Positions 1,696 to 27,856 of a stretch of DNA of 64,000 bases are shown one piece after another; position 1 is the stretch's first letter, and every line of letters begins with the position of its first letter. The stretch lies in sequence record NC_047885.1; one strand, 5' to 3'. The stretch is from Escherichia phage chee24. The notes below the pieces were generated by a model. The model searched no databases. It worked only from the letters and a program-made list of their open reading frames with translations, and had not been told where the DNA came from. The position numbers and the translations under genes are program-made.

Positions 1696-1720
1696 AATAT
1701 ATTCTCATACTGAATTAATT

Positions 1721-1797: not shown

Positions 1798-1806
1798 ATA
1801 ATTTAT

Positions 1807-2172: not shown

Positions 2173-2667
2173 ATATAAGTCAGAACTAGAGTTAATACGT
2201 CCTAGATATTTACTAAGATCCCTAGAATTTATACTAAACCACTCATGTTCTTTTAAATCTTTGAAATACTGGTGAATTAGTTTTTCACCTTTTCGTTTGT
2301 CAAACCAAAAAGACCAATGCTCTAACTTATAATCCCTATAGGGGGAATAAGTCTGATATTGAGCTAATCTCTCTTTTGGATTTTGACTCATACCTATTTT
2401 ATACTGATTTTTCCATGCAGGATTACTAATACAGTATACAAAACCTTCGGAAATAGGAAGTTTATTTTCCTGCTTAAACTTTATAAAGGAAAGTGCAGCA
2501 AGTTTTCTTGAATACATAGTATTCGTATTCTTTTTGGTATTACCATTGGTTCCTGAAAGATTTATATATTCTTCTATAAATCTCTGGATTAGTTCTGCGG
2601 TTATATAGAAGGGCTCATTAGTAACAACGCCTTTCTTTACCAAACTATCAAAAACTTTTGTATGCAC
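2149..2667 (-). CDS. T5orf172-domain protein (GIY-YIG-like nuclease fold, 172 aa)
   Basis: Motif GFVYCISNPAWKNQYKIGMS...YSPYRDYKLEHW typical of the T5orf172 family; 3' end overlaps the tRNA at 2095-2172. Confidence 0.65.
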   Translation of the reverse strand: MHTKVFDSLVKKGVVTNEPFYITAELIQRFIEEYINLSGTNGNTKKNTNTMYSRKLAALSFIKFKQENKLPISEGFVYCISNPAWKNQYKIGMSQNPKERLAQYQTYSPYRDYKLEHWSFWFDKRKGEKLIHQYFKDLKEHEWFSINSRDLSKYLGRINSSSDLYGSLALIG

Positions 2668-2688
2668 TACTTCTTTCCTTTAGTAATT

Positions 2689-2764
2689 TGGACGACCGCA
2701 TGAGATTTGAACTCACATAAAAAGGATTTGCAATCCTTCGCCTAAGCCATTCAGCCAACGGTCG
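2689..2764 (-). tRNA. tRNA-Cys (anticodon GCA), CCA encoded
   Basis: Acceptor CGACCGT/GCGGTCG, anticodon stem AAGGA/TCCTT with loop TTGCAAA, T-arm GTGAG-TTCAAAT-CTCAT. Confidence 0.65.
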
Positions 2765-2942
2765 ATTTATCTTGTTTTTCGAGATCTTCAAATTCTAAAT
2801 CATTGAAGTTCCCTAGAGTACGGGAGTAGAACCCGTCTCCTACGTCATAGCCTGATTTACCACAATCACACATTTTAAACTCTCTATAACGAGTGAAAAT
2901 ATGTTCAGAACCACAACACTTAAATTTAACTAACATTTTCAT
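2751..2942 (-). CDS. small Cys-rich protein (63 aa), possible zinc ribbon
   Basis: ORF with CC..H and CDC motifs. Confidence 0.45.
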   Translation of the reverse strand: MKMLVKFKCCGSEHIFTRYREFKMCDCGKSGYDVGDGFYSRTLGNFNDLEFEDLEKQDKSTVG

Positions 2943-3181
2943 TTAACACGCTCCGGTAAATCTTCGAGTTTATATTGGGTAGCCACATTAGCAGCATCTA
3001 GTAACAAACCCATATGTTTAAGAATCCTGGTGATAGCCTCGCCTTCTGCTTCTTCTACAAAGCAACGTAGATTAACGAAGTCAATACCACCATCCATACC
3101 AGAGAAAATGTTTAGTAAGCGAAACATTACCAGCTTACGTTCTTTCAATTCTTGTTCTGTCATGTTGCTTCTCCAGTTCAA
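2939..3181 (-). CDS. hypothetical protein (80 aa)
   Basis: ORF start overlaps the stop of the upstream ORF (coupled pair). Confidence 0.5.
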   Translation of the reverse strand: MNWRSNMTEQELKERKLVMFRLLNIFSGMDGGIDFVNLRCFVEEAEGEAITRILKHMGLLLDAANVATQYKLEDLPERVK

Positions 3182-3213
3182 TTTATGTAATTATTATATA
3201 GAACTTTTGGAAA

Positions 3214-3501
3214 CTAAGCAACTACATTTTTTAGGAATTTGATCCCTTTCTTTTTCTTCTTATATTTCCACGTTAATGGATTCTGTCGATTATGAACGCT
3301 TGAGATCTTTGTCTCGTCAAAGTTCTTCAATATCATGTAATCACAGGATAATTGTTCTAGTGGAATGTGATCACCGTCAAAAGCGTATACATAAGGCTGT
3401 TGACTAGCACGATAATGATAGACTTTGTTAATTCTACGTTTCAGCGACTTATCCGCGCAGTAAATAAAGAAGTTTTCAGGATGCATCAGCATCTCCTTCA
3501 A
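3214..3501 (-). CDS. hypothetical protein (95 aa)
   Basis: ORF in the minus-strand series. Confidence 0.5.
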   Translation of the reverse strand: MKEMLMHPENFFIYCADKSLKRRINKVYHYRASQQPYVYAFDGDHIPLEQLSCDYMILKNFDETKISSVHNRQNPLTWKYKKKKKGIKFLKNVVA

Positions 3502-3503
3502 TT

Positions 3504-3578
3504 TGGTGCACCCTGTTCGTATCGAACGAACCTCTCAAGCTCTTCAGGCAAGCGCTAATCCATCTCAGCTAAAGGTGC
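3504..3578 (-). tRNA. tRNA, probably Phe (anticodon GAA), CCA encoded
   Basis: Acceptor GCACCTT/AGGGTGC, D-arm GCTG..TAGC, perfect T-arm GTTCG-TTCGATA-CGAAC; anticodon stem has two U-U mismatches. Confidence 0.5.
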
Positions 3579-3584
3579 AAATTT

Positions 3585-3665
3585 TGGCAAACCCACTAGG
3601 ACTCGAACCTAGACCGTACGGTTTTGGAGACCGACATGCTGTCCAGTAACACTCTAGGAATGCAG
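3585..3665 (-). ncRNA. tRNA-like element with Trp-like anticodon loop (CTCCAAA) but no acceptor-stem pairing
   Basis: T-arm CTAGG-TTCGAGT-CCTAG and 3' CCA present; no complementary 5' strand found within tRNA distance. Confidence 0.3.
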
Positions 3666-3669
3666 AAAT

Positions 3670-3763
3670 TGGTACACCCACGGAGAATTGAACTCCGATT
3701 CTCAGATTGAACTCCGATTCTCAGATTGAAATCCTGATGTCCTAGCCATTAGACGATAGGTGT
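3670..3763 (-). tRNA. tRNA-Glu-like gene (anticodon UUC) with a 19-bp tandem duplication at the variable-loop position
   Basis: Removing one repeat copy gives a 75-nt cloverleaf (acceptor ACACCTA/TGGGTGT, D-arm GTCT-AATGGCTA-GGAC, anticodon stem TCAGG/TCTGA, T-arm CGGAG-TTCAATT-CTCCG); as encoded it is 94 nt. Confidence 0.45.
3687..3730. repeat. perfect 19-bp tandem duplication (ATTGAACTCCGATTCTCAG x2) plus a 6-bp partial third copy
   Basis: Exact copies at 3687-3705 and 3706-3724. Confidence 0.85.
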
Positions 3764-3771
3764 ATTAAATT

Positions 3772-3859
3772 TGGTGGGCGTTAATGGAGTCGAACCACTC
3801 GAGTCGCAATGACCAGGGATTTACAATCCCCTCCGCTACCACTTACGGAATAAACGCCC
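3772..3859 (-). tRNA. tRNA-Tyr (anticodon GUA), long variable arm, CCA encoded
   Basis: Acceptor GGGCGTT/AACGCCC, anticodon stem GGGGA/TCCCT with loop TTGTAAA, 88-nt length with extra arm. Confidence 0.6.
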
Positions 3860-3987
3860 ATATTTAGAAGCATTCAAATACTTGTTTAAACACTTTTAAA
3901 TATGTTTCCGAATTAGATAACTATTATACCAAGTTTTAAGGCACTGAGCAAGTCAAATTTTAAAGAACTTGCTCAGTGCTGTATTAG

Positions 3988-4263
3988 TTAGTCGAACTTA
4001 GGAGTGATAGTTAAGGAGAACGGAAGTTCGAAAACTTCTTCGCCCTCATTACTAACGGTAACTACACGACCTTTAAGTTCAGACATTAAAATATCAATAT
4101 CAGCTTTTGCATCTGGAGCCATGCCAGCTTCAATACATTTAGCTTTAACTTCCGGTAAAAGCTCTACGTTATAGAGATAGAGCCACTCAATCTCACCTTC
4201 CCAGTCTTCCCAGGATTTGCAGATTGCACTTTCAATACCAGTTGCTACAACACGATTTTGCAT
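3988..4263 (-). CDS. hypothetical protein (91 aa)
   Basis: ORF with promoter-like TTGCCT-18-TATAAT (minus sense) at about 4290-4345 upstream. Confidence 0.55.
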   Translation of the reverse strand: MQNRVVATGIESAICKSWEDWEGEIEWLYLYNVELLPEVKAKCIEAGMAPDAKADIDILMSELKGRVVTVSNEGEEVFELPFSLTITPKFD

Positions 4264-4353
4264 TAATTAACTCCTTCATCAATTTATATAACTATTATAC
4301 CAGAAATTTAAAGTAAAAGGCAAGTACATTTTTAAAAATTCTGTTTGGAGGAG

Positions 4354-4560
4354 CTAAACTCCAGATTTTTCGGCCAAGTCTAGACTAATAAGAGTTATAG
4401 CCATAATTGCTGCACCGTGTTCTTTTTCTCCGGTGTTTTTAGCAGAGTCTATAATATCCTTAATCTGTTCGTAATAACTTTTTACTTCTTGTTCAATGCC
4501 TGCCTCGGCTATCATGCCTTTAGCCATGAATCGTTGCATGGTAATTTCAGGATTAGCCAT
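4354..4560 (-). CDS. hypothetical protein (68 aa)
   Basis: ORF; start overlaps the stop of the 4553-4720 ORF. Confidence 0.5.
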   Translation of the reverse strand: MANPEITMQRFMAKGMIAEAGIEQEVKSYYEQIKDIIDSAKNTGEKEHGAAIMAITLISLDLAEKSGV

Positions 4561-4720
4561 GTTGTTTCTCCAGTTTCATTTTTAATAGTTTACAGATGAA
4601 ATCAACGTCTTCATCTGTGCCTAAGTCTCTATCCTCAAGGGTCGCCTTGAAGTTTTTCGTCAATTCCATGAGGATGACTTCCCTAGAACGACGTGTTGGC
4701 GGAGGTGGATGTCTATACAT
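4553..4720 (-). CDS. small hypothetical protein (55 aa)
   Basis: Unlisted ORF below the track cutoff, coupled to the downstream gene. Confidence 0.35.
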   Translation of the reverse strand: MYRHPPPPTRRSREVILMELTKNFKATLEDRDLGTDEDVDFICKLLKMKLEKQHG

Positions 4721-4735
4721 CTTATTTCCTTAATT

Positions 4736-4812
4736 TGGTAGGGGTGGTGGGATTCGAACCCACAAAACCTGAATTTTAAGTCCAGTACCTATGCCAATTC
4801 GATTACACCCCC
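4736..4812 (-). tRNA. tRNA with anticodon UAA (Leu-like, but short variable loop)
   Basis: Acceptor GGGGGTG/CACCCCT, T-arm GTGGG-TTCGAAT-CCCAC, anticodon stem CTGGA/TTCAG with loop CTTAAAA. Confidence 0.5.
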
Positions 4813-5107
4813 ATGTAATCAGTTTATTAGTTGATACATATTATAGCCTAAAGAAAACCCTACTACTAATCCTACGAACCAACCAATATAATAATCTTTT
4901 AATTTCACGGGTGTCAACCTCGTTCAATATCTAGAGAAATACCACAGGTAGGATTAATGCCTGTGCCTTTGCACGTCGGACAAACCCAGATATTACAGAA
5001 TGTATCCCCTGCTTCTGCATCAGAACTTTTCCAACTCCTAGACAGTTAGGACAGGCACATTCTTCTAGCTCTTGCTTGAGTTCTTGAAACTTAGACATAT
5101 AGTTTCC

Positions 5108-5296
5108 TTATTCAATTACTTTTGAGGCTTCAAGGGAGTCGATATAGTGTACGTTTTCTACCATGATCATATAATCTGCCACTTTATCCATAGCCTGAGC
5201 TTCAGAGGTAGCCCTGGCTAACCTATATCCTTTTTTATATTCATCCGGGTATTCCCTATCTGGAATAAACACAACACAAACTAGGTATAGTTCCAC
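5108..5296 (-). CDS. hypothetical protein (62 aa)
   Basis: ORF in the minus-strand series. Confidence 0.4.
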   Translation of the reverse strand: MELYLVCVVFIPDREYPDEYKKGYRLARATSEAQAMDKVADYMIMVENVHYIDSLEASKVIE

Positions 5297-5317
5297 TTGT
5301 AACCTCTCTAATCAAGA

Positions 5318-5395
5318 TGGTGGCTCCCCGAGGATTCGAACCTACGTACCTTCCGGTTATGAGCCGGATGCTCATACCATATGAGCTTGAGAACC
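5318..5395 (-). tRNA. tRNA-Met or Ile2 (anticodon CAU), CCA encoded
   Basis: Acceptor GGTTCTC/GGGAGCC, anticodon stem TCCGG/CCGGA with loop CTCATAA; T-stem imperfect. Confidence 0.55.
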
Positions 5396-5401
5396 AGAAT
5401 T

Positions 5402-5490
5402 TGGCGGAAGAAGTGGGAATCGAACCCACAAGGCTATATTTCAAACCGACAGATTAGCAATCTGCTGCAATACCGTTATGCTATTCTTCC
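5402..5490 (-). tRNA. tRNA-Ser (anticodon GCU), long variable arm, CCA encoded
   Basis: Acceptor GGAAGAA/TTCTTCC, anticodon stem GCAGA/TCTGT with loop TTGCTAA, T-arm GTGGG-TTCGATT-CCCAC, 89 nt. Confidence 0.6.
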
Positions 5491-5505
5491 GAATTTATAA
5501 GATAT

Positions 5506-5534
5506 ATTATATTAGAAATTTAGCTTCATAGCAA
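5506..5534 (-). promoter_or_regulatory. sigma70-like early promoter (minus sense TTGCTA-17-TATAAT) upstream of tRNA-Ser
   Basis: Plus-strand ATTATA 5506-5511 and TAGCAA 5529-5534; same conserved promoter family. Confidence 0.55.
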
Positions 5535-6030
5535 GAAAATTTTTCAAGTTTTCGGTAGACATCTCATCCACATCTACAGGAGAAACAAATCCATTTAATT
5601 GTCTAGCAAATTTTTCACCAGCAGGATCATTATCCCCAACAGCTACCAATTTAAAAGGTAGTAATTTCAATTGCTTTAACAACGCTTTTCCTGGAGAAGA
5701 ACCCAACATTGCCAGGGCTGGATAACCAGCGTTATGTAATGCTACGGCCTTAAATACAGATTCCGCAACCAATACTACTTTTTCATCCCCATTGAGAGTT
5801 TCCAGCCCCCATACACACTGTGTAGTAGAATAAGTAAAATACTTAGCTTCAAAAGGAGATTTACCATGACCTTTTGGAGCAGAAGGATTATAAGTCTGAT
5901 AGCCTCTCAACATCCCAGAGAAGTCATACAATGGGACTGTTAGCCATCCTTCCGGACTTAACCAGCAATGATATTTATCTGTATCAAACCCTCTAGATAA
6001 GAGATGTTCTGTTAGTTCATCAACAGTCAT
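5512..6030 (-). CDS. TOPRIM-domain protein, primase-like paralog lacking a zinc finger (172 aa)
   Basis: VVLVAESVFKAVAL and VAVGDNDPAG motifs (Glu plus DxD) align with the TOPRIM region of the primase at 37630-38520. Confidence 0.55.
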   Translation of the reverse strand: MTVDELTEHLLSRGFDTDKYHCWLSPEGWLTVPLYDFSGMLRGYQTYNPSAPKGHGKSPFEAKYFTYSTTQCVWGLETLNGDEKVVLVAESVFKAVALHNAGYPALAMLGSSPGKALLKQLKLLPFKLVAVGDNDPAGEKFARQLNGFVSPVDVDEMSTENLKNFLAMKLNF

Positions 6031-6058
6031 ATTAGATTCCTCTCAAATTTATAAATAT

Positions 6059-6087
6059 ATTATACAGAGGATTTAGCATTCAAGCAA
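6059..6087 (-). promoter_or_regulatory. sigma70-like early promoter (minus sense TTGCTT-17-TATAAT) for 5512-6030
   Basis: Plus-strand ATTATA 6059-6064 and AAGCAA 6082-6087. Confidence 0.55.
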
Positions 6088-6165
6088 TTGAATTTTTTAA
6101 CTTTTTAGAGGAAAATCACAGGATGCTTACGGGTAGCAGGTAAGTGGTCAGGACCGAAATTTGTG

Positions 6166-6195
6166 ACCCCACTAAAAATCTGGGGTCAATTTTTA
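6166..6195 (+). terminator. rho-independent terminator-like hairpin at the 5' edge of the plus-strand cassette
   Basis: Stem GACCCCA/TGGGGTC with 9-nt loop, followed by AATTTTTA. Confidence 0.5.
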
Positions 6196-6203
6196 AAGAC
6201 CCC

Positions 6204-6232
6204 TTGACATTTTTGCCGGGGTAGTGTAAAGT
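6204..6232 (+). promoter_or_regulatory. sigma70-like promoter (TTGACA-17-TAAAGT) for the plus-strand cassette
   Basis: Consensus -35 at 6204-6209, 17-bp spacer, -10 TAAAGT 6227-6232, AGGAGG RBS at 6280. Confidence 0.6.
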
Positions 6233-6295
6233 ATATGTTATGGATGAGTGATCAAAGAGACACACATTTTCTATATACTAGGAGGTGTCAAAAAA

Positions 6296-7275
6296 TGACA
6301 GAAGAAGTAGCTAAGAGTCCTGAAACCGTCGCTAGCGTAGCAGCAGAACTGCATCGTCACGAGGAATCAGATAAGAAAAAGTGGGAGAAAGTCAAAGCCT
6401 ACGAAGAAGAACATCGTGAACACGATGATAAAGATGAAGAAGATGACGATGATGAACATTGTCATAAATATGGAAAACATAAAATGCAAGAACCAGTAAA
6501 CGTATTTACTAATGGCTTCCCTGGCATGGGTGCATTCCCAGCTAACGCAAGTGCTTTCGGTGGAGAAGGTATGGGTCTATTCGGAGCTATCCTAATCGGT
6601 GCTCTATTAACAGGCGGATTTGGTGGTTTTGGTGGTTTTGGCCGTGGTGCTGGCGTTGCCGCTGAAGGGACTGCTGTGGACGCGATCCTTTCTAACCAAG
6701 ATACTGCAAGTATTCTAGCTGCAATCAATACTACTCGTACAGAAGCTAACCAGGGCACTGGGGCTGTTCTAAGCGCAGTAAACGGTGTGGGAGCTGCTCA
6801 AGCTGCTAGCACTCAGCAAGTTCTGACTACTATCTACGGTACAGGTGCTAATCTGTCAAACCAGATCTGTGCTGAAACTCGTAACGTTATTCAGGGTCAG
6901 TTCGATCTTTCTCGTCAGATGGATCAATCTTTCGCTGCTAACCAGATCGCACGTGCTCAAGATAAGTTTGACTCTGCTCAGATTGCTTTCCAGCAGTCTA
7001 TTCAGACCAATAACCAGTTTGCCGCTGTTCAGGCTCAGATGTGTGCTAACCAGAATGCTATAGAGCGTCAGCTTGCTGAATGTTGCTGTGAACTTCAGAC
7101 TGCGATCGCTGGTGTAACTACTGCGCGTATCCAGGACGAACTGAATGAATGCCGTCTGCGTGAAGCAATCGCTCAAGGTAGTGGTGCTAACGGTCAGGTA
7201 ATTAACCAAATCGCTGTAAGTCTTGGTGCTATCACTCAGACTCTGGCTGGTCTGCAGGCTAAACTGCCGGCTTAA
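6296..7275 (+). CDS. hypothetical protein (326 aa): acidic N-terminus, Gly-rich hydrophobic segment, Gln/Ala-rich C-terminal half
   Basis: Track ORF 6235-7275 trimmed to the ATG at 6296 behind AGGAGG; segment GMGLFGAILIGALLTGGFGGFGGFG looks like a glycine-zipper membrane helix; codons look more GC-rich than neighbours. Confidence 0.6.
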
Positions 7276-7296
7276 AATTAAGGGGAGGAGCCCATT

Positions 7297-7713
7297 ATGA
7301 GTAAATATGGTTTTGTAAACAACGGATTTAATCAACAAATGGGCTCCCAGCAGCCCGTTCCGGGTCTGGATAATCCTTACCTACAACAGTTGCAACAGCG
7401 TTTAGCAGAAGCGCAACAGATGCAGCAACAACTCCAGCAAAACCCTGGAAGTGTGAGTCCTATGCAAATGATGCAGCAAATGAGCGGGCAGTCGCAAATG
7501 CCTCAACAAATGCAGCAACAGGTGCCTCAGCAGCAAGTTCAGCAACAAACCCAACAACCGCAGGTTTCTGCGGAAGGACAGGCAGTACTAGCTCTTTTCG
7601 AAGATTTCGCAAAGACAGAGGATGGGAAACAGCTTGTATCACTTATGGGTAAGTTTAATAGCTTCTGCCAAAGCCAGGTTGCAAAAGCTCAAAATGGTGA
7701 TAATAACTCCTAA
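7297..7713 (+). CDS. Gln-rich low-complexity protein (138 aa)
   Basis: ATG behind GGGGAGGAG RBS; long QQ(M/L)QQ tracts. Confidence 0.55.
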   Translation: MSKYGFVNNGFNQQMGSQQPVPGLDNPYLQQLQQRLAEAQQMQQQLQQNPGSVSPMQMMQQMSGQSQMPQQMQQQVPQQQVQQQTQQPQVSAEGQAVLALFEDFAKTEDGKQLVSLMGKFNSFCQSQVAKAQNGDNNS

Positions 7714-7722
7714 GGAGGAATT

Positions 7723-7917
7723 ATGTGTTGCAGAAAATCTGTTTCGTGCTGCCCAATGCCTGTAGCACGTTGTTGCTCTCCAGCAATGTTTACACAAATA
7801 CCGGCGTTCAATCCCTTTGCCTTTAAGCCTACTCTTATCCTGCCCCCTAGAGTAGATTTTCAGTCAAGATTGGCCTCCCGTATGGGTGGTTGCTGTAACA
7901 AGAGTATATGGTTCTAA
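7723..7917 (+). CDS. small Cys-rich protein (64 aa) with four Cys-Cys doublets
   Basis: ATG behind AAGGAGG RBS; sequence MCCRKSVSCC..RCCS..GGCCNK. Confidence 0.5.
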   Translation: MCCRKSVSCCPMPVARCCSPAMFTQIPAFNPFAFKPTLILPPRVDFQSRLASRMGGCCNKSIWF

Positions 7918-7933
7918 AGAACCAATAATAAAA

Positions 7934-7966
7934 AGCCCCTAGTCGAAAGACTTAGGGGCTTTTCTC
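7934..7966 (+). terminator. rho-independent terminator ending the plus-strand cassette
   Basis: Stem AGCCCCTAGTC / GACTTAGGGGCT with GAAA loop, followed by TTTTCTC. Confidence 0.7.
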
Positions 7967-7975
7967 TTATCTTAA

Positions 7976-8014
7976 ATACAGAAAAGCCCTGCGCTCTCCA
8001 GGGAACGCAGGGCT
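7976..8014 (-). terminator. rho-independent terminator downstream of the SPFH gene
   Basis: Stem AGCCCTGCG/CGCAGGGCT; minus-sense T-tract from plus AGAAAA. Confidence 0.6.
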
Positions 8015-8038
8015 TACTTCGAATATTACGTGTGGGTA

Positions 8039-8986
8039 TTACTTGTTACGCATATCCATAATCATCTGGCCATCATAACCAGTGCCAACCACAGTCTGCG
8101 GTACACCACCTTGATACTTCTGAGCACGAATCATTTCAACTTCTAGTTGCTTCCAGCGAATCATCTCAGGAGTAATGGTACGTTGCAGAGCAGCGTTAGC
8201 TTCAGCTTCTTTCTTAGCTGCATACAGTTTAGCATCTGCATCACGTTCGTTTGCAATAGCTTGGTTGTTACGAGCTTCACGATCTGCTTCTGCTTGTTTA
8301 ACCTTCTGCTGTGCTTCTTGTTCAACGCGAGCTAATTCAGCTTTCGCAGCATTAACTTGTTCTTCGCGAACTTTGGTATTCTGTACCTGTTCCATAATTA
8401 CCGGTGGCAATGTAATATCCTGAAGGAACACTTGCTTAACTGTGTAACCATAGGGGCGTGCATACTCTTCAACTTCCTGTTGAATTGCAGTTTGCAATTG
8501 TGCTTGAATTTTAGCATCAAACAAATCTTGTGCTTTAGGTACAGACTTACCAAACTCACGAATAGTAGACAGTAATTTTTCAGTTACATACTTATCTAGA
8601 GCCTGATCTTGAGTACCCGCATTAATACGGTTGATCGGTGCCTTAGAACCATCAAACTGCAACATAACAGTCAGGTCAACAGTGGATTTAAACTTATCCT
8701 GGCTAGGAACCTGAAGTTTATCTAATTTTACAGCAATATCTTTTGTACTAAAAGTATCGAAAGATGCAAATGGGTTTACAAGATGGAAACCAGGTAATAC
8801 TGGGTTAGGATCTACTTTACCTAGAAATGTTTGGGTTTTAACCGTACCATCAGAAACAATAGTATATGAATTAAAAGCTAGGATTAAACCTGCTAAACCA
8901 ACTACAGCACCAATACTCCAACGTTTAATAGTGCGAATTACTTTTTGCTCAGAAGTCAGTTCTTTCATATTTTTAGTATTAGACAT
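8039..8986 (-). CDS. SPFH/band-7 (prohibitin/HflC-like) membrane protein (315 aa)
   Basis: N-terminal membrane anchor (WSIGAVVGLAGLILAF), SPFH-like core, long Ala/Glu/Gln-rich coiled-coil C-terminus. Confidence 0.65.
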   Translation of the reverse strand: MSNTKNMKELTSEQKVIRTIKRWSIGAVVGLAGLILAFNSYTIVSDGTVKTQTFLGKVDPNPVLPGFHLVNPFASFDTFSTKDIAVKLDKLQVPSQDKFKSTVDLTVMLQFDGSKAPINRINAGTQDQALDKYVTEKLLSTIREFGKSVPKAQDLFDAKIQAQLQTAIQQEVEEYARPYGYTVKQVFLQDITLPPVIMEQVQNTKVREEQVNAAKAELARVEQEAQQKVKQAEADREARNNQAIANERDADAKLYAAKKEAEANAALQRTITPEMIRWKQLEVEMIRAQKYQGGVPQTVVGTGYDGQMIMDMRNK

Positions 8987-9020
8987 ATATTTCCTTTGTT
9001 TTAGTTACAGTTAATAAAAT

Positions 9021-9095
9021 TGGCCGAGGTGACAGGATTCGAACCTGCATAAAGGAATTTAGAAGACTCCTGCCTCTCCCTTAGACTACACCCCG
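9021..9095 (-). tRNA. tRNA-Arg (anticodon UCU), CCA encoded
   Basis: Acceptor CGGGGTG/CACCTCG, anticodon stem GGAGT/ATTCC with loop CTTCTAA, T-arm GCAGG-TTCGAAT-CCTGT. Confidence 0.6.
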
Positions 9096-9597
9096 TTTAA
9101 GTATTTTTAAGAACTCTCGTAAAAACTCTTAAAAATACAGACGATACCGGGAGAGTCATAAGTCTCACTCATTAAGTATTTCAAGACAAAATACAGTAAC
9201 GTCTATTATTTTCCAGTTTAAGTCAAGGTGACTTAGTGGTTATGTCCTGCGGTATACTGAGGACTAGGTTAGGTTAGGGTCATGACTCCCCACCTTTTTG
9301 CTGCTACTCAACAGGAGTTATCGCGAATTACCTGTGCTATTGTGCACCATTAGTGGCATCTCTCATGCCAGCATTTCCCACTTTGTGGATAGTTTGAAAA
9401 ACTACTCCGATATGGAGAAAGAACTTCACTATCCTAGAATACCTTCTAAAGTTCTTCTTTAGCCTGGACATAGTTAAATCGTAATAAAACTATTCAGCAG
9501 ACTGGTTGGTTAGTCTGGAACCAACTACCGCGTGGTTTAGGCAGTGCGCAACTAACCTCGGAAGCTTTTACATTAAAAGCACCAGTTATCCAGTTCT

Positions 9598-9670
9598 TAC
9601 CGACCGTAGGATTCGAACCTACATCTTCCACCAGTTACGGCTTGATAATACCGTTTTATACTAGATCGGC
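9598..9670 (-). ncRNA. tRNA-like element (canonical acceptor stem and T-arm, irregular core)
   Basis: Acceptor GCCGATC/GGTCGGT and T-arm GTAGG-TTCGAAT-CCTAC; no standard anticodon arm identified. Confidence 0.3.
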
Positions 9671-9893
9671 AGTGTTACTACATAAGTGATTTCCACACCC
9701 CACTATCAGTAAATTAGAGAAGAGTTTAGGGGAGAGGTTTCAGACGCCCCATTTTACACGTTCTAGCCACTAACCGGGATTGCCGCCCCCTGTGTACTAG
9801 TTTTCCAACTAACCCACCGACTCTATTCAATGCGCTCCGGTTGGGATTCTGCACTCAGCGTAATCGGCTCGCTGTTCTCTAATTTATGAATAT

Positions 9894-22226: not shown

Positions 22227-22255
22227 TTGACATTTGCCCTTGAATAAGCTATAAT
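22227..22255 (+). promoter_or_regulatory. sigma70 consensus promoter (TTGACA-17-TATAAT) for nrdD
   Basis: Exact consensus hexamers with 17-bp spacer; AGAAGGAGAG RBS follows. Confidence 0.7.
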
Positions 22256-24166: not shown

Positions 24167-24200
24167 AGCCGGGTTGCTAGTCGACCTGGCTTTTATTTTA
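24167..24200 (+). terminator. rho-independent terminator after nrdD
   Basis: Stem AGCCGGGT/ACCTGGCT followed by TTTTATTTTATTT. Confidence 0.65.
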
Positions 24201-24201
24201 T

Positions 24202-24230
24202 TTGCTTTCAGCTAAAAATATATGTATAAT
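24202..24230 (+). promoter_or_regulatory. sigma70-like early promoter (TTGCTT-17-TATAAT) with conserved leader
   Basis: -35 24202-24207, -10 24225-24230, leader AGATTTATAAATTTGAGAGGAGGG. Confidence 0.65.
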
Positions 24231-24257: not shown

Positions 24258-24617
24258 ATGGAACTAAAACCATTTATTGTTGTATCTAAGTTAGGACATT
24301 ATCACTTAGGAGTAGATACTATTCAGGAAGCTATTTTTGCTGCTACAGGTGATTACTCATTACTAGAAGGTATTGGATATCCTACATTACTAGGTGACTT
24401 TGTAGAGCAAGAATTAGATATTACTGTCTATAATCCTATATATGAAGAACCTGAAGACTTAAAAGAGACTCTAGAATTTGTATATTGGAACCACTTACAA
24501 GTATTTAATGTTACCACCAATGGCACAGAGGATTTCTCTTCTGCTATTAAATATCATATTAAGCAAGTTTACTACGATTACTTCTATGAGGATATTGGAG
24601 CGGAGCTAAAAGTATGA
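24258..24617 (+). CDS. hypothetical protein (119 aa)
   Basis: Track ORF 24222 starts inside the promoter -10; moved to the ATG behind GAGAGGAGGG. No Cys cluster, so not an NrdG activase. Confidence 0.5.
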   Translation: MELKPFIVVSKLGHYHLGVDTIQEAIFAATGDYSLLEGIGYPTLLGDFVEQELDITVYNPIYEEPEDLKETLEFVYWNHLQVFNVTTNGTEDFSSAIKYHIKQVYYDYFYEDIGAELKV

Positions 24618-24844
24618 AAAACGTAAAACATCTTAAATATCGCTTAATCTATAACGGACGTATGGAAACTGAAGAGCTAGCTCAATTAGCTATTAACTCT
24701 AATGAGGTTATGGTGCGTGCGCTGGCAATTGAAAAGTTGCGGGCTTCTTATGAAAGCCGTATTATGCGGCTGGAGGAAACCCTTTATGGACTTCTTGAAT
24801 CAGAAGCTAAAAGCAACCCAGAGGACAGGCCTACTAAGCAATAG
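24614..24844 (+). CDS. hypothetical protein (76 aa)
   Basis: ATGA coupling with the upstream gene. Confidence 0.5.
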   Translation: MKNVKHLKYRLIYNGRMETEELAQLAINSNEVMVRALAIEKLRASYESRIMRLEETLYGLLESEAKSNPEDRPTKQ

Positions 24845-24898: not shown

Positions 24899-25738
24899 GT
24901 GAGGAATTGTACAGTGCGTAGATTAATTATTATCAGTGGTGCAGGTTTGAGTGTTGAAAGTGGTGTACGAGCCTTCCGTACTGATACTGCTAGTGGTAAA
25001 GCATTGTGGGATGATTATGACTTAGAAGAGGTATGTAATATTCATGCCTTTCGTGGTAACTTTTATCATAAAACCCATATGTTTTACAACAAGCGACGTG
25101 AAGAGCTAGAAACTGTTGAACCTAACCTTGCGCATCTTCGTATTGGTGAGTGGTATAAGAAATATCCGGGTCAAGTAGTAAATTTGACTACTAACGTTGA
25201 TGACCTTATTGAGCGTGCTGGTGTTCCCCATAATGATATTCTCCACATTCATGGATACTTAAAGGAGGTTGTTGTAGCTGATAGCTATAATAGTAGCAAT
25301 AAACGAGTTATTGATGTTGGGTATAGCTCTATTGACCCAGATGATTATAAATGGGTTAAACCTAATGTAATCTTCTTTGGTGAGCATGCTCCAGCGTACG
25401 CAGAAATGTACAATATTTTTGATGGTATTACTAGTCAAGATATGATCGTTGTAGTTGGTTGCTCTAACCAAGTAATTAATTTCTACTGGGAATTATTTCC
25501 TATTCTTAACCGTACTGCTGCGAAACTTATGGTGGTTAACTACTACGATAGTGCCCTAGCGGCAGAACCAGGCTATCAAGGTATGACTCGTAGTGATATG
25601 TACCAGTTGGAAGATCGTGGTATTCCTTACTGGAGTAAAGGTGCGGTAGATGCTTTCAGTGATCCTGGTTTTATTGCTCGTGTAGAAGCTCATCTAGAGG
25701 GTAGACCTTATATGCCGGGAAAACAAATATGTCCATAG
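24899..25738 (+). CDS. Sir2-family (sirtuin-like NAD-dependent) protein
   Basis: SGAGLSVESGVRAFR (GAGIS-like), TTNVDDL and HIHG motifs; GTG start, second GTG at 24914 also possible. Confidence 0.65.
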   Translation: MRNCTVRRLIIISGAGLSVESGVRAFRTDTASGKALWDDYDLEEVCNIHAFRGNFYHKTHMFYNKRREELETVEPNLAHLRIGEWYKKYPGQVVNLTTNVDDLIERAGVPHNDILHIHGYLKEVVVADSYNSSNKRVIDVGYSSIDPDDYKWVKPNVIFFGEHAPAYAEMYNIFDGITSQDMIVVVGCSNQVINFYWELFPILNRTAAKLMVVNYYDSALAAEPGYQGMTRSDMYQLEDRGIPYWSKGAVDAFSDPGFIARVEAHLEGRPYMPGKQICP

Positions 25739-25911
25739 TTAAATCTGTATATACACATCCCGATGATATATTTGTATGGGCGGATGGTAGTTGGTGCTAT
25801 CGATGTGAGCTATGGGAAATGGACTATAAATCCGATGACTATGGTGTCATATATGTTGATACGGTTGAGTATGATACGTTCTTAGAAAGGGACAAAAATG
25901 GAAATAAGTAA
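25729..25911 (+). CDS. small hypothetical protein (60 aa)
   Basis: ORF overlapping both neighbours' ends. Confidence 0.4.
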   Translation: MSIVKSVYTHPDDIFVWADGSWCYRCELWEMDYKSDDYGVIYVDTVEYDTFLERDKNGNK

Positions 25912-26404
25912 TACTCCAATTATTTTTCTAGATATTGATGGGGTGCTCAACTCTAGCATCTCCCATCACCATGCACCTGATGATGAGAAGATTTTCTTCG
26001 GAAGTGACTGGGTTTTTAAGCCGCTTCTCAAGGCTTTTCAGGACTTTATTCGTCCTTCTCCAATAATGATTGTTGGGGTATCTTCATGGTTCTCTGTCAG
26101 GAATGAGATGGAGAACGTTCAGATTATGACCGGATTAGATCTTATCGATCGTTTTCTTGGTACAACGGATTTTACTGGTGGTGGGCTATCTAGGGGTAAT
26201 TCTGTTCTTCGCTTCGTTGAAAAGCATAAGCTCAAACATTGGTGTGTGCTGGATGACGCTGGTGCTATGATGTATCAGTATCCAACGGTTATAGTCAACG
26301 GTAGAACTGGAATAAATCTTCAAGATTTAAGAGCTGTTAGCTATATGTTAGAATTTAGTCCAGATCTTGAAATGTGTAAAGCCCTACAACAATTTAAGGT
26401 GTAA
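25898..26404 (+). CDS. HAD-superfamily phosphatase-like protein (168 aa)
   Basis: N-terminal IFLDIDGVLN (DxDG[TV]L motif I). Confidence 0.55.
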   Translation: MEISNTPIIFLDIDGVLNSSISHHHAPDDEKIFFGSDWVFKPLLKAFQDFIRPSPIMIVGVSSWFSVRNEMENVQIMTGLDLIDRFLGTTDFTGGGLSRGNSVLRFVEKHKLKHWCVLDDAGAMMYQYPTVIVNGRTGINLQDLRAVSYMLEFSPDLEMCKALQQFKV

Positions 26405-26406
26405 AT

Positions 26407-26835
26407 ATGTTCAATAATGTATTTTCTAAAGAAGCTAACCCAATATTGGTTAATTTTTGGCGTACTCTTCCAGCCAATCTGTACAATGAGGCTATTAACT
26501 CCTTGAAAATATGGTGTGAGAATAACGAAATCTCCTTTGCTTTTAAAGATGATATTGATGAGGCTCCCTGTATTGGTTTAATTGTTCAGGTAGAGGAGGG
26601 TCTTGAAGAAATTGTCGGTTGGAAAGAGTTAGATGAAATGGGCTTAGTTTTTGCGTTAAACTATAAGCTGTTTATGCCTGCTAAGCATCGCCTCGTTGTT
26701 AACTATAAAACTAGTGAATCTCCTGGTTTTCAGGTTAATGAACGTTATGGTTGGTCTTACTCACCGGAAGAAGTAAATGAGGGGATTCAGAAACTTCGAC
26801 ATTTCGGGTATATGATCCCAGGTTTAACTGCTTAA
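26407..26835 (+). CDS. hypothetical protein, paralog A of a tandem pair (142 aa)
   Basis: Shares CIG, W..L..MGL..ALN..LF.P and G(Y/I)..PGL motifs with 26845-27237. Confidence 0.55.
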   Translation: MFNNVFSKEANPILVNFWRTLPANLYNEAINSLKIWCENNEISFAFKDDIDEAPCIGLIVQVEEGLEEIVGWKELDEMGLVFALNYKLFMPAKHRLVVNYKTSESPGFQVNERYGWSYSPEEVNEGIQKLRHFGYMIPGLTA

Positions 26836-26844
26836 GGAGGCAGA

Positions 26845-27237
26845 ATGGAACAAGTATATTGGCGTCAGATTGACCCTAGTTTGGTGAAACGTGCGGAGAA
26901 GCTGCTACAACGTTGGTTGGGGGTAAGACAAGTCTCCTTCACTTTTCCGGAGCAGCAAACGGATGATCCATGCATTGGCGTTTTCCTGTCTGGATATGCC
27001 GGGGAATGGGAATTGGATTGGAATGAATTGTCTGCTATGGGCTTGATTGTTGCCCTAAACTTCTCTTTGTTCCATCCACGTGGTTTGGCCATATGTCGTG
27101 TGCCTGATGATGGTTGTTCGCCCCATCTTTTACAGGTGGAAGATGATATTTGGGAGTACACTCCAGATATTCTCACAGAAGCTAAAGAACAATTAAATCG
27201 TGTTGGGATTTATGTTCCGGGCTTAAATGATGAATGA
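26845..27237 (+). CDS. hypothetical protein, paralog B of a tandem pair (130 aa)
   Basis: GGAGG RBS; paralogous to 26407-26835. Confidence 0.55.
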   Translation: MEQVYWRQIDPSLVKRAEKLLQRWLGVRQVSFTFPEQQTDDPCIGVFLSGYAGEWELDWNELSAMGLIVALNFSLFHPRGLAICRVPDDGCSPHLLQVEDDIWEYTPDILTEAKEQLNRVGIYVPGLNDE

Positions 27238-27260
27238 TTTTTATTAGCTGAACTCTGATT

Positions 27261-27286
27261 ACCGAGTCATTTTGGCTCGGTTTTAT
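27261..27286 (+). terminator. weak terminator-like hairpin after the paralog pair
   Basis: Stem ACCGAG/CTCGGT followed by TTTTA. Confidence 0.4.
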
Positions 27287-27328
27287 CCGTACTCAAGACC
27301 AATGATAGCACCATCCGGAAAATTTTAC

Positions 27329-27357
27329 TTGCATGATGCCCAAAATCTTGATATAAT
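27329..27357 (+). promoter_or_regulatory. sigma70-like promoter (TTGCAT-17-TATAAT)
   Basis: -35 27329-27334, -10 27352-27357. Confidence 0.55.
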
Positions 27358-27856
27358 ATTTATATTGAATTGAGAGACATTAGTAAAAATTGATTTTGCT
27401 AATTTTTCTTGTTTACAATCCGCGATACGGAACAGTTAGGCTGCCCCATTAAGGGTTGTTTTAACTGTTACGTGTTAGTTTTTAAACAAATAGTTAATAG
27501 AATACTTAGCGATCTGCGTCCCGTAGGAACCCTGGTAAGGCCTCGAAGCAACCTAGATAGAGGTGGTTGTGAAGTGAGACGGGAGGAGTGAAAAACTCCG
27601 AGACGTGATTCTGTAAGTTATATTGCATCTAGTATGAGCTAGTATATGAAGCATTAGGTGAGCAAATCTGGCTTAGCGGCCATCCTCAAGGATTTGTGCG
27701 GTATAGCAAAGCAGCAGCGCAGCGTGAAAGTGGAAGTTGCCACCCCACTTCAGTATTTGCGATTAATTTGTTGAGAAATTGACAGTAACAGTTGTTCTAT
27801 TCTTTCTGAATAGTCCTAAAGAAAACTTATTTCATTTCCAACACAGGAGTATTGTT

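What the first reader, a model, noticed from the sequence alone, without database searches (positions are those of the whole stretch)
24899..27237. Sir2-like protein, HAD-like phosphatase and a tandem pair of paralogous unknowns in one early operon
A sirtuin-fold protein (GAGIS-like, TxNxD and HG motifs) sits next to a HAD-type phosphatase (DxDG motif) and two paralogous proteins of unknown function. Sir2 domains act on NAD in bacterial anti-phage systems, so a phage-borne Sir2 with a nucleotide phosphatase could serve NAD or nucleotide metabolism or counter-defence. The paralog pair suggests recent duplication and diversification.
Basis: inference. Interest (0 to 1): 0.65.

Follow-up and report, generated by a model that had tools for sequence, protein, structure and literature searches.

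The report
T5 phage sirtuin–phosphatase early gene cluster
This is the long-annotated early gene cluster of a T5-like phage, holding a zinc-less sirtuin, a small HAD phosphatase and two old copies of an unknown domain (DUF7415); the genes are real and already catalogued, but nobody has shown what they do.

Summary
The window is a Tequintavirus, 100% identical to phage pork27. Coordinates 24899-27237 are the orthologues of T5 genes T5.102 and T5.104-T5.107. They encode a Sir2 protein, a 60-aa ORF, a HAD_SAK_2 phosphatase and two DUF7415 proteins, in one promoter-to-terminator unit after nrdD.

The Sir2 is a classical class-III (CobB/SIRT5-like) sirtuin of a phage-only clade. It keeps every NAD and catalytic residue and the YxxR pair, and it has lost all four zinc cysteines. 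It matches no defence-system Sir2 model.

The sirtuin–HAD pairing in T5-like phages was published in 2022 with a KptA-like RNA-repair hypothesis. I re-verified the supporting contexts: RNA ligase, cREC and kinase in rV5 and Mydo; 2H, Nudix-cREC and PIN-PhoH in a jumbo phage. However, this genome has no Rnl1-type RNA ligase.

The paralogue duplication is old, not recent.

A published T5 knock-down screen scores Sir2 and HAD as not fitness-relevant on a lab host. The second DUF7415 gene (T5.107) is scored borderline fitness-relevant.

DUF7415 has a confident predicted structure with no known fold match. It recurs next to, or fused with, replication and nucleotide enzymes. Function stays unproven and novelty is low.

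The parts
24167..24191 (+). Intrinsic terminator hairpin ending the nrdD transcript; upstream boundary of the unit
   Evidence: 10-bp stem with 6 GC pairs followed by a T-run. The same feature is annotated as a terminator in T5.
24201..24229 (+). Promoter-like site TTGCTT-17 nt-TATAAT that would drive the cluster
   Evidence: Read directly from the sequence. It lies where T5 annotates a promoter upstream of T5.100. It falls below the scan threshold because the -35 hexamer matches only 3 of 6 positions.
24258..24617 (+). T5.100 orthologue, 119 aa, function unknown
   Evidence: phrog_11748, E=1e-64. GGAGG ribosome-binding site before the ATG at 24258. A homologue sits at the same position in phage My1. 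Scored 'Not Fit' in the T5 screen.
24614..24844 (+). T5.101 orthologue, 76 aa, function unknown
   Evidence: phrog_5236, E=2e-44. No Pfam match. Scored 'Not Fit'.
24914..25738 (+). Zinc-less sirtuin of a phage-only clade derived from class III (T5.102 orthologue). The ORF opens at 24899; the likely start is the GTG at 24914.
   Evidence: Pfam SIR2 E=2.1e-24 and phrog_2162 E=2e-120. Best PDB sequence match is E. coli CobB, E=1.7e-17. The AlphaFold2 model (pLDDT 88.8) matches CobB with target-normalised TM 0.83. GAG, FR, PNxxH, TxNxD, H118 and FGE are conserved; Y63 and R66 are invariant in 38 phage homologues; all four zinc cysteines are absent.
25729..25911 (+). T5.104 orthologue, 60 aa, overlapping both neighbouring genes; function unknown
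   Evidence: phrog_5116, E=1.9e-29. A homologue follows Sir2 in Klebsiella phage Roth50, E=1.5e-14. T5 carries an extra weak paralogue, T5.103, that this window lacks.
25898..26404 (+). Small HAD-superfamily phosphatase of the HAD_SAK_2 family (T5.105 orthologue)
   Evidence: Pfam PF18143 E=1.8e-20, covering profile positions 1-138 of 139. D12, D14, S62/S63, R99/R105 and D119/D120 are invariant in five homologues. No relative of solved structure by sequence or profile search. Scored 'Not Fit'.
26407..26835 (+). DUF7415 paralogue A (T5.106 orthologue), two-domain form; the canonical HP and R residues are lost
   Evidence: Pfam DUF7415 E=1.6e-35 in two stretches. Alignments show FMPAKHR in place of FHPRGLA. 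Its orthologue is the first copy in Roth50. Scored 'Not Fit'.
26845..27237 (+). DUF7415 paralogue B (T5.107 orthologue), two-domain form that keeps the family motif WN..S..GL...N....HP.G.A..R.P..G.S
27261..27286 (+). Terminator-like hairpin (ACCGAGTC / GGCTCGGT followed by TTTAT) ending the unit
   Evidence: Read from the sequence. It lies at the position of the T5-annotated rho-independent terminator after T5.107.

Best explanation
What it is: the conserved early transcription unit T5.100-T5.107 of a Tequintavirus. It lies between the nucleotide-metabolism block (thy, frd, nrdB, nrdA, phoH, nrdD) and the replication block (T5.108 helicase, NAD-dependent DNA ligase, polymerase).

The enzymes:
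- The Sir2 protein belongs to a phage-only sirtuin clade that descends from class-III sirtuins such as CobB and SIRT5. It keeps the full NAD pocket, the catalytic histidine and the anion-binding Tyr/Arg pair. It has lost the zinc module and has a rebuilt substrate loop.
- The HAD protein has all four catalytic HAD motifs intact.

Most likely mechanism (inferred, not shown):
1. The sirtuin uses NAD+ to transfer ADP-ribose onto an anionic phosphate acceptor. The most probable acceptor is a 2' or terminal phosphate left on RNA, for example tRNA, cut by a metal-independent nuclease. The phosphate would leave as an ADP-ribose derivative. This is chemistry analogous to KptA/Tpt1.
2. The HAD_SAK_2 phosphatase removes either a remaining terminal RNA phosphate or the phosphate of the ADP-ribose by-product.

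The pair would be a conditionally useful end-healing or nucleotide clean-up accessory, not a core function.

The two DUF7415 genes are probably not part of that chemistry. They belong to a separate small phage domain family that travels with replication and dNTP-metabolism genes. Copy B is the ancestral, motif-bearing form.

The confidence given (0.38) applies to the mechanism. The identity of the genes is near certain.
For: Identity and conservation:
- The region is 100% identical to pork27 and about 94% identical to T5. The same gene order is annotated in T5, with a promoter and terminators.
- The sirtuin assignment rests on Pfam, PDB sequence matches, the predicted structure and conserved residues.
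- The HAD catalytic motifs are intact.

Context of the same sirtuin clade (37-64% identical in the alignment) in other phage lineages, which I re-verified:
- rV5: RnlA, cREC, Sir2 and a MazG-annotated gene in one tight operon, with an AAA_33 kinase and a metallophosphoesterase transcribed divergently.
- Mydo: metallophosphoesterase, then RNA ligase, cREC, AAA_33 kinase, a small ORF and Sir2.
- Jumbo phage CBB: a 2H/Acb1-like phosphoesterase, a small ORF, Sir2, a Nudix-cREC fusion, then PIN-PhoH.
- Jumbo phage EC.P1: Sir2, Nudix, then PIN-PhoH.
- T5-like phages and My1: Sir2, a small ORF, then HAD_SAK_2.
- The shared theme is enzymes that act on phosphate or cyclic-phosphate ends. Iyer et al. 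2022 proposed this reading (PMC9503650 section 3.7.3).
- HAD_SAK_2 also lies about 650 nt upstream of rnlA in Aeromonas phage Aeh1.

Other support:
- The invariant Tyr63/Arg66 pair fits an anionic acceptor.
- The window carries 15 phage tRNA genes, which are plausible substrates.
- Knock-down of T5.102-T5.106 has no effect on a laboratory host, which fits a conditional accessory role.

Separate status of DUF7415:
- It occurs without Sir2 or HAD in T4-like phages: between nrdD and nrdG in two genera, and two genes downstream of a Nudix gene in two others.
- In P2-like contigs, the replication protein gpA is the adjacent ORF in 21 of 78 loci.
- It is found fused to thymidylate kinase, a dATP/dGTP pyrophosphohydrolase, a 3'-5' exonuclease and DUF3850/ASCH.
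Against: - No biochemistry exists for any member of this phage sirtuin clade in the searchable literature. No sirtuin is known to act on RNA phosphates.
- The pork27 genome has no homologue of the Rnl1-type RNA ligases, the cREC protein or the MazG-annotated protein that flank Sir2 in rV5 and Mydo (tblastn and phmmer, E up to 1). No RNA ligase is annotated in the parts of the genome whose annotation I read. A full heal-and-seal pathway is therefore not encoded here.
- Sugarland-like phages keep Sir2 but lack the HAD. HAD_SAK_2 occurs without Sir2 in T4-like phages. The pairing is therefore not obligate.
- The closest sequences and structures are all protein lysine deacylases.
- Gene proximity in a densely packed early region of related phages is weak evidence of functional coupling.
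- Fusions seen in metagenomic gene calls could include mis-called genes.
Confidence: 0.38

Rival explanations
1. The sirtuin is what its nearest relatives are. It would be an NAD+-dependent protein lysine deacylase with CobB/SIRT5-like specificity for acidic acyl groups (succinyl, malonyl) or acetyl. It would re-set acylation of host or phage proteins early in infection. The HAD and DUF7415 genes would simply be neighbours.
For: - The best sequence and structure matches are CobB, Sir2-Af1/Af2 and SIRT5, with target-normalised TM up to 0.84.
- The catalytic His118, the FGE loop, all NAD contacts and the class-III YxxR pair are invariant in the phage clade.
- The protein is a single domain with no fused sensor or effector.
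- Skliros et al. 2016 reached this reading for the zinc-less Vibrio-phage homologues and listed T5 (PMC5107563).
Against: - All four zinc cysteines are gone. The peptide-clamping loop GTSxxVxPA is replaced by a clade-specific GCSNxVINFxWELFP.
- Scores against the curated CobB models are far below their cut-offs: 102 against 243 bits, and 92 against 320 bits.
- The recurrent linkage to RNA-end and cyclic-phosphate enzymes in four phage lineages would have to be coincidence.
- No substrate is known.
Confidence: 0.3
2. The cluster is a counter-defence or NAD-economy module. The sirtuin and phosphatase would destroy or divert NAD-derived or cyclic-nucleotide immune signals, or manage NAD, ADP-ribose and nicotinamide pools during infection. 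This is.
For: - In jumbo phage CBB, the gene two positions before the sirtuin matches the anti-CBASS Acb1 family (E=1e-15). The gene after it is a Nudix-cREC fusion, and a nicotinamide phosphoribosyltransferase lies about 2 kb upstream.
- T5-like phages use NAD heavily. They encode an NAD-dependent DNA ligase. Some carry the NARP3 NAD-rebuilding pair (PMC13464706).
- Dispensability on a laboratory host fits a conditional anti-defence gene.
Against: - No similarity to any PADLOC model and no known anti-defence family match for the window's own proteins.
- A sirtuin consumes NAD+, which would work against the phage's own NAD needs.
- No phenotype on any defence-carrying host has been reported in the papers I could search.
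- The HAD family is named for RNA-repair proteins, not for signal degradation.
Confidence: 0.12
3. The HAD protein is a free-nucleotide phosphatase, and the whole unit, including DUF7415, is an accessory of deoxynucleotide supply attached to nrdD. The sirtuin would regulate that metabolism.
For: - The unit starts directly after nrdD and sits beside thy, frd, nrdAB and phoH.
- HAD_SAK_2 lies between td and nrdA.1 in Aeh1, and near the dCTPase/dUTPase gene in Proteus phage PM2.
- DUF7415 lies between nrdD and nrdG in two T4-like genera. It is fused to thymidylate kinase and to dNTP pyrophosphohydrolases.
Against: - T5-like phages already encode a dedicated 5'-deoxyribonucleotidase.
- In T4-like genomes these positions are variable slots between conserved core genes, so adjacency is weak evidence.
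- DUF7415 also sits between head gene L and tail gene X in phiCTX.
- Nothing links a sirtuin to ribonucleotide reductase here.
Confidence: 0.1

Closest known systems
E. coli CobB and human SIRT5 (class-III sirtuins, NAD+-dependent lysine deacylases)
   Same: - Best sequence match (E=1.7e-17) and best structural match (TM 0.83 normalised to CobB).
- Shares GAGxS, FR, PNxxH, TxNxD, the catalytic His and FGE.
- Shares the Tyr/Arg pair that binds the acidic acyl group in class III.
   Different: - About 25% identity.
- No zinc-binding cysteines.
- Gln replaced by Thr in the TQNxD motif.
- A different loop where canonical sirtuins clamp the peptide.
- Far below the curated CobB score cut-offs.
- Found only on phage-sized contigs.
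Phage sirtuin neighbourhoods of Iyer, Burroughs, Anantharaman and Aravind 2022 (PMC9503650 section 3.7.3), especially 'type 3', typified by the T5-like phage SP15
   Same: This is that neighbourhood: the phage-clade sirtuin next to a 'Swiss-army-knife' HAD phosphatase. I re-verified the related rV5/Mydo and jumbo-phage versions.
   Different: - The paper does not discuss the DUF7415 pair, the small ORF between Sir2 and HAD, or the lack of an RNA ligase in T5-like genomes.
- Its function assignment is a prediction only.
KptA/Tpt1 RNA 2'-phosphotransferase
   Same: The proposed chemistry is the same. NAD+ donates ADP-ribose to a phosphate, nicotinamide leaves, and the ribose 2''-OH then attacks to release the phosphate as an ADP-ribose cyclic phosphate. 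This parallels the two-step sirtuin mechanism (established knowledge of both families; an inference for this protein).
   Different: Unrelated fold (ART superfamily against a Rossmann-fold sirtuin). No experimental support for a sirtuin doing this reaction.
T4 polynucleotide kinase-phosphatase (HAD-type 3'-phosphatase domain) with RNA ligase 1
   Same: - A phage HAD-superfamily DxD phosphatase implicated in healing broken tRNA ends.
- rV5 and Mydo encode kinase, phosphoesterase and Rnl1 beside the sirtuin.
   Different: - The window's HAD is a separate 168-aa protein of another HAD family. It has no detectable sequence relative of solved structure.
- No polynucleotide kinase or RNA ligase partner was found (Rnl1-type ligase searched; none annotated).
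Zinc-less Sir2/CobB of KVP40-like Vibrio phages (Skliros et al. 2016, PMC5107563)
   Same: Same phage clade. Vibrio phage Va3 is 40% identical by tblastn (37% in the alignment) and shows the same loss of zinc ligands with a conserved His.
   Different: Different neighbours (next to a topoisomerase gene). That paper proposes deacetylation of acetyl-CoA synthetase, which is untested.

Membership tests
Sirtuin / SIR2 family (Pfam PF02146) | Profile score above the curated gathering threshold | tested here: met
   86.9 bits against a cut-off of 24, E=2.1e-24, covering profile positions 1-178 of 180.
Sirtuin / SIR2 family (Pfam PF02146) | Rossmann-type sirtuin fold | tested here: met
   The AlphaFold2 model (pLDDT 88.8, pTM 0.88) matches CobB, Sir2-Af1 and SIRT5 with Foldseek E values of about 1e-17 to 1e-13. 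TM normalised to the target is 0.81-0.84 for CobB chains.
Sirtuin / SIR2 family (Pfam PF02146) | NAD-binding motifs (GAGxS, FR, TxNxD) and the catalytic histidine | tested here: met
   G14, A15, G16, S21, F26, R27, T97, N99, H118 and G119 are invariant across phage and canonical sirtuins, and D101 nearly so. All of these except T97 (nearly invariant there) are invariant in 38 phage homologues. Gln of the TQNxD motif is Thr.
Sirtuin / SIR2 family (Pfam PF02146) | Cys4 zinc-binding module in the small domain | tested here: not met
   No cysteine aligns with the CobB, Af1 or Af2 zinc ligands in any of the eight phage sequences aligned. The same loss was noted for Vibrio-phage homologues (PMC5107563).
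Sirtuin / SIR2 family (Pfam PF02146) | NAD+-dependent deacylase or ADP-ribosyltransferase activity | not testable with these tools
   No biochemical report was found.
Class-III sirtuins (CobB/SIRT5 type) | The Tyr-x-x-Arg pair that binds the acidic acyl group | tested here: met
   FYNKRR aligns with CobB FYNARR. Y63 and R66 are invariant in 38 phage homologues.
CobB equivalog (NCBIfam NF040867, NF001753) | Score above the curated equivalog or subfamily cut-off | tested here: not met
   91.7 bits against 320, and 102.1 bits against 243.
Defence-type SIR2 NADases (ThsA, DSR1/2, SIR2-HerA, SIR2-APAZ) | Match to defence-system SIR2 profiles, or fusion or pairing with a sensor (SLOG, HerA, pAgo, long C-terminal domain) | tested here: not met
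   No PADLOC model matched at E up to 0.01. The protein is a single sirtuin domain of about 274 aa. None of the 50 listed structural matches is a defence SIR2.
HAD superfamily, HAD_SAK_2 (Pfam PF18143) | Profile score above the gathering threshold | tested here: met
   74.2 bits against 27.5, E=1.8e-20.
HAD superfamily, HAD_SAK_2 (Pfam PF18143) | Catalytic motifs I (DxD), II (S/T), III (K/R) and IV (DD) | tested here: met
   D12, D14, S62/S63, R99/R105 and D119/D120 are invariant in homologues from T5-like, My1 and three T4-like phages.
HAD superfamily, HAD_SAK_2 (Pfam PF18143) | Phosphatase activity on RNA ends | not testable with these tools
   The family name rests on a prediction. No relative of solved structure or known activity was found.
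Predicted sirtuin-centred RNA-repair neighbourhood (Iyer et al. 2022) | Phage-clade sirtuin adjacent to an RNA-end phosphate-processing enzyme | tested here: met
   Sir2, a 60-aa ORF, then HAD_SAK_2. Related versions were verified.
Predicted sirtuin-centred RNA-repair neighbourhood (Iyer et al. 2022) | An RNA ligase in the same genome to seal healed ends | tested here: not met
   No hit to the rV5, Mydo or Aeh1 Rnl1-type ligases anywhere in the 120.6-kb pork27 genome. None is annotated in the parts whose annotation I read. Rnl2 and RtcB types were not searched with profiles.
DUF7415 (Pfam PF24187) | Profile score above the gathering threshold | tested here: met
   121.5 and 111.2 bits against a cut-off of 27, with two matched stretches in each protein.

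The most novel reading that the evidence does not exclude
Two linked readings remain open.

1. The zinc-less phage sirtuin clade is the first sirtuin whose natural acceptor is a phosphate on RNA or a nucleotide, not an acyl-lysine. It would be a functional analogue of KptA/Tpt1. In T5-like phages it would work with a HAD phosphatase and no dedicated RNA ligase, so it would serve something other than classic heal-and-seal tRNA repair.

2. DUF7415 copy B (T5.107) is a new, structurally unprecedented module tied to replication or dNTP supply, and it matters for T5 fitness.
Probability: 0.25. Interest if true: 0.7.

Novelty: already known. Interest (0 to 1): 0.33.

Why it matters
Sirtuins of this clade occur in about a thousand sequenced phage records: T5-like, rV5-like, phi92-like, KVP40-like and jumbo phages. 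None has a demonstrated activity. Showing what the enzyme does would settle a 20-year-old annotation ('NAD-dependent deacetylase') and test the 2022 RNA-repair prediction. It could also add a new reaction type to the sirtuin family.

The cluster matters for NAD-centred phage–host conflict. T5-like phages both spend NAD (DNA ligase, sirtuin), and in some cases rebuild it (NARP3).

The least expected lead is DUF7415. It is a small acidic domain with a very confident predicted structure and no known fold match. It sits beside replication and dNTP enzymes in T5-, T4- and P2-like phages. One copy was scored fitness-relevant in T5.

For this window itself, the result is ordinary. It is a known phage carrying known, already annotated genes.

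Tried and rejected
2. PDB sequence and profile searches for the HAD protein found nothing credible.
3. PADLOC found no hit for any of the seven proteins. NCBIfam gave only sub-threshold CobB hits.
4. I considered acidic pI as evidence against an RNA substrate and rejected it. The phage RNA ligases and cREC proteins are equally acidic.
5. A tblastn marker census of 80 IMG/VR DUF7415 loci was too insensitive: 69 of 80 had no marker hit. I replaced it by clustering the adjacent ORFs and annotating cluster representatives.
6. Searches for homologues of the small ORFs T5.100, T5.101 and T5.104 beside Sir2 outside Demerecviridae found none.
7. Rfam found only tRNAs in the window.
8. Literature searches for T5.102-T5.107, DUF7415 and phage sirtuin biochemistry found no experimental work beyond the knock-down screen.
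9. The idea that the HAD and DUF7415 contexts in Aeh1 prove a link to RNA ligase was downgraded. T4-like core gene order places td, nrd, denA and rnlA together anyway.


Full report
**Identity of the window.** The region 24899-27237 is 100% identical to five T5-like phages (pork27, pork29, saus111K, poul124, saus47N) and about 94% identical to T5 itself. 439 phage records match it. By offset, the window is pork27 positions 32000-95999. The T5 annotation of the same stretch lists T5.099 nrdD, a terminator, a promoter, T5.100, T5.101, T5.102 'Sir2', T5.103, T5.104, T5.105, T5.106, T5.107, a terminator, a promoter and T5.108, a replication-origin-binding helicase. The window has the same order but lacks T5.103.

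**Check of the observation.** Five tightly packed ORFs on the + strand occupy the stated coordinates.
- Sir2: 24899-25738. The probable start is the GTG at 24914, which has a GAGGA 8 nt upstream. All homologues begin MRRLI.
- A 60-aa ORF: 25729-25911.
- HAD: 25898-26404.
- Two DUF7415 ORFs: 26407-26835 and 26845-27237.

Pfam gives SIR2 at E=2.1e-24, HAD_SAK_2 at E=1.8e-20, and DUF7415 at E=1.6e-35 and 2.7e-32. The paralogues are 31% identical over 124 residues, E=8e-21.

The boundaries of the unit are visible in the sequence. A strong terminator hairpin follows nrdD (24167-24191). A TTGCTT-17-TATAAT promoter lies at 24201-24229. A terminator-like hairpin lies at 27261-27286. These coincide with the T5 features. 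The unit also contains the unknown ORFs 24258-24617 and 24614-24844.

**The sirtuin.**
- The best solved relatives by sequence are E. coli CobB (E=1.7e-17), then Archaeoglobus Sir2-Af1/Af2 and SIRT5.
- An AlphaFold2 model built on 38 homologues (pLDDT 88.8, pTM 0.88) matches CobB best (Foldseek E=8e-18; TM 0.83 normalised to CobB). The next matches are Af1 and SIRT5. No defence-type SIR2 appears among the 50 listed matches.
- An alignment of eight phage sirtuins with CobB, Af1 and Af2, and a 38-member phage alignment, show conserved GAG, S21-G22, F26-R27, P75-N76-x-x-H79, T-x-N99-x-D101, R106-A-G108, catalytic H118-G119, P155 and F160-G-E162. They also show the class-III Tyr63/Arg66 pair.
- None of the four zinc cysteines is present. 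Gln of the TQNxD motif is Thr. The canonical GTSxxVxPA loop is replaced by a clade-specific GCSNxVINFxWELFP.
- The scores against curated CobB models are far below their cut-offs. No PADLOC defence model matches.
- The clade is phage-borne. 166 clusters were found in the 5.8-billion-protein search. All named members carry phage names or come from phage-sized contigs. 1002 phage records hit by tblastn: T5-like, Vequintavirinae, Phapecoctavirus, Sugarland-like, KVP40-like and jumbo phages.
- The loss of the zinc site in phage Sir2/CobB proteins was already noted by Skliros et al. 2016, who listed T5.

**The phosphatase.**
- The 168-aa protein matches almost the whole HAD_SAK_2 profile.
- The HAD motifs are invariant in homologues from My1 and three T4-like phages: D12-x-D14, S62/S63, R99/R105 and D119-D120.
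- No solved relative was found by sequence or by profile.
- RefSeq labels T5.105 'Sir2'. This is an error that appears to come from PHROG 18062. The pork27 record truncates the gene and so loses the catalytic N-terminus.

**What is already published.**
- Iyer, Burroughs, Anantharaman and Aravind 2022 (PMC9503650 section 3.7.3) defined a distinct phage sirtuin clade and three conserved neighbourhoods. [quoted passage not shown]
- They proposed that the sirtuin removes RNA 2'-phosphates in the manner of KptA.
- I found no experimental study of any member.

**Independent check of those contexts.**
- rV5: RnlA, cREC (PF20274, E=9e-14), Sir2 and a MazG-annotated gene lie in one tight co-directional block. 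An AAA_33 kinase and a metallophosphoesterase are transcribed divergently.
- Mydo: metallophosphoesterase, then RNA ligase, cREC, AAA_33 kinase, a small ORF, Sir2 and a DNA ligase.
- CBB: an Acb1-like 2H phosphoesterase, a zinc-binding small ORF, Sir2, a Nudt16-like Nudix-cREC fusion, then PIN-PhoH. A nicotinamide phosphoribosyltransferase lies about 2 kb upstream.
- EC.P1: Sir2, Nudix, then PIN-PhoH.
- Within Demerecviridae: My1 has Sir2, a small ORF, HAD, a 90-aa ORF and one DUF7415 gene. Sugarland-like Roth50 has Sir2, a small ORF and two DUF7415 genes, with no HAD.
- The recurring partners are enzymes that act on phosphate or cyclic-phosphate termini. This is the main reason I rank a phosphate-directed, KptA-like activity first.

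**Evidence against that ranking.**
- The complete pork27 genome has no homologue of the Rnl1-type ligases, the cREC protein or the MazG-annotated protein. No RNA ligase is annotated in the parts of the genome whose annotation I read.
- HAD and Sir2 each occur without the other.
- The nearest characterised relatives are all lysine deacylases.
- The catalytic histidine and the Tyr/Arg pair fit both readings. The second step of both mechanisms needs the ribose 2'-OH to be activated, and both acceptors are anionic. This point is inference from the established sirtuin and Tpt1 mechanisms.

**Fitness data.** The CRISPRi-ART screen of T5 (PMC11879866, supplementary files 1 and 16) scores T5.100-T5.106 as 'Not Fit'. 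This set includes the sirtuin and the HAD. It scores T5.107 as 'Fit' (score -2.90, p=0.0215), one of only 17 such genes. The call is borderline: neighbouring genes score between -3.1 and -4.6. The screen also misses many genes expected to matter, so it is a lead and not proof.

**The DUF7415 pair.**
- Reciprocal best hits pair window copy A with the first Roth50 copy, and copy B with the second. My1's single copy is of the B type. The duplication is therefore old and the gene order is preserved.
- The C-terminal half of each protein corresponds to standalone proteins of about 75 aa, with the motif WN..S..GL...N....HP.G.A..R.P..G.S....D..W.Y. Copy B keeps this motif. Copy A has lost the HP and R residues.
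- An exhaustive profile search found 340 cluster representatives at E up to 1e-3.
- Of 20 long members scanned, five had an identifiable partner domain: thymidylate kinase (one), dATP/dGTP pyrophosphohydrolase (two), Rv2179c-like 3'-5' exonuclease (one) and DUF3850/ASCH (one). A sixth, P0226, looks MazG-like by eye only.
- Standalone copies lie between nrdD and nrdG in Jiaodavirus and Gualtarvirus. They lie two genes downstream of a Nudix gene in Slopekvirus and Pseudotevenvirus. One follows rnlA in Aeh1.
- In P2-like contigs the adjacent ORF is gpA in 21 of 78 loci. A 233-aa protein with a DPPY motif, which had no Pfam match, is adjacent in 12. DUF3850 is adjacent in 3. In phiCTX the copy lies between L and X.
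- The literature search returned nothing for DUF7415.
- I conclude that DUF7415 is an independent small accessory domain associated with replication and dNTP genes, not a component of the sirtuin–HAD chemistry. Its mechanism is unknown.

**Verdict.** It is wrong on the resemblance to defence Sir2 proteins and on recent duplication. The cluster is a known, annotated feature of a known phage, and its main functional hypothesis is already in print. The residual interest lies in two things: the untested activity of the phage sirtuin clade, and DUF7415 copy B.

Noticed in passing
window 27238-27856: About 620 nt with no gene separates the cluster's terminator from the T5.108-like helicase gene. The helicase probably starts at the GTG at 27857, after the RBS ACAGGAG; the mechanical ORF opens at a TTG at 27779. 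A promoter-like TTGCAT...TATAAT lies at about 27329-27352. The roughly 500-nt leader folds better than all 100 shuffles (z=-3.25) and matches no Rfam family. It could be a structured leader, a small RNA or an origin-related region.
   Followed up: partly
L001 (T5 NC_005859) 6155-6661; L002 (pork27) 6210-6506: RefSeq names the HAD phosphatase T5.105 'Sir2 (NAD-dependent deacetylase)', probably through PHROG 18062. The pork27 record truncates the same gene to 98 aa and loses the catalytic DxD. DUF7415 proteins are variously labelled 'tail tube protein' or 'exonuclease' in other records.
   Followed up: yes
window 26845-27237 (T5.107 orthologue): The published CRISPRi-ART screen lists T5.107 among the 17 fitness-relevant T5 genes, described as of 'entirely unknown function'. 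T5.100-T5.106 and T5.108 are scored not fitness-relevant. The call is borderline (p=0.0215).
   Followed up: partly
L069 2155-4794 and other P2-like IMG/VR loci (L020-L099): In prophage-sized contigs of about 35 kb, the ORF adjacent to the standalone DUF7415 gene is the replication protein gpA (PF05840) in 21 of 78 loci. Several DUF7415 genes in these loci are 185 aa long, the length of the MazG-like fusion P0226.
   Followed up: partly
L101 (phage CBB) 1-5189: In this jumbo phage the sirtuin sits between an Acb1-like (anti-CBASS family) 2H phosphoesterase and a Nudix-cREC fusion. A nicotinamide phosphoribosyltransferase lies about 2 kb upstream. This raises an immune-signal or NAD-recycling reading of the sirtuin neighbourhood.
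   Followed up: partly
window 22227-22255: A perfect sigma-70 consensus promoter (TTGACA, 17 nt, TATAAT; 12 of 12) lies directly upstream of nrdD. It faces divergent promoter-like sites for the phoH side.
   Followed up: no
window 468-9671, minus strand: Fifteen tRNA genes of the T5 tRNA cluster, including one ARAGORN calls tRNA-Ser with anticodon ACT, which is probably mis-assigned. In T5 this region also holds several 'stable RNAs of unknown function'.
   Followed up: no
L001 5810-5995 (T5.103) compared with window 25729-25911: T5 carries an extra 61-aa ORF, T5.103, that this window lacks. It looks like a weak paralogue of the small ORF T5.104 (both assigned to phrog_5116; E=0.004 to the Roth50 homologue). 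The small gene after Sir2 was therefore itself duplicated in T5.
   Followed up: partly
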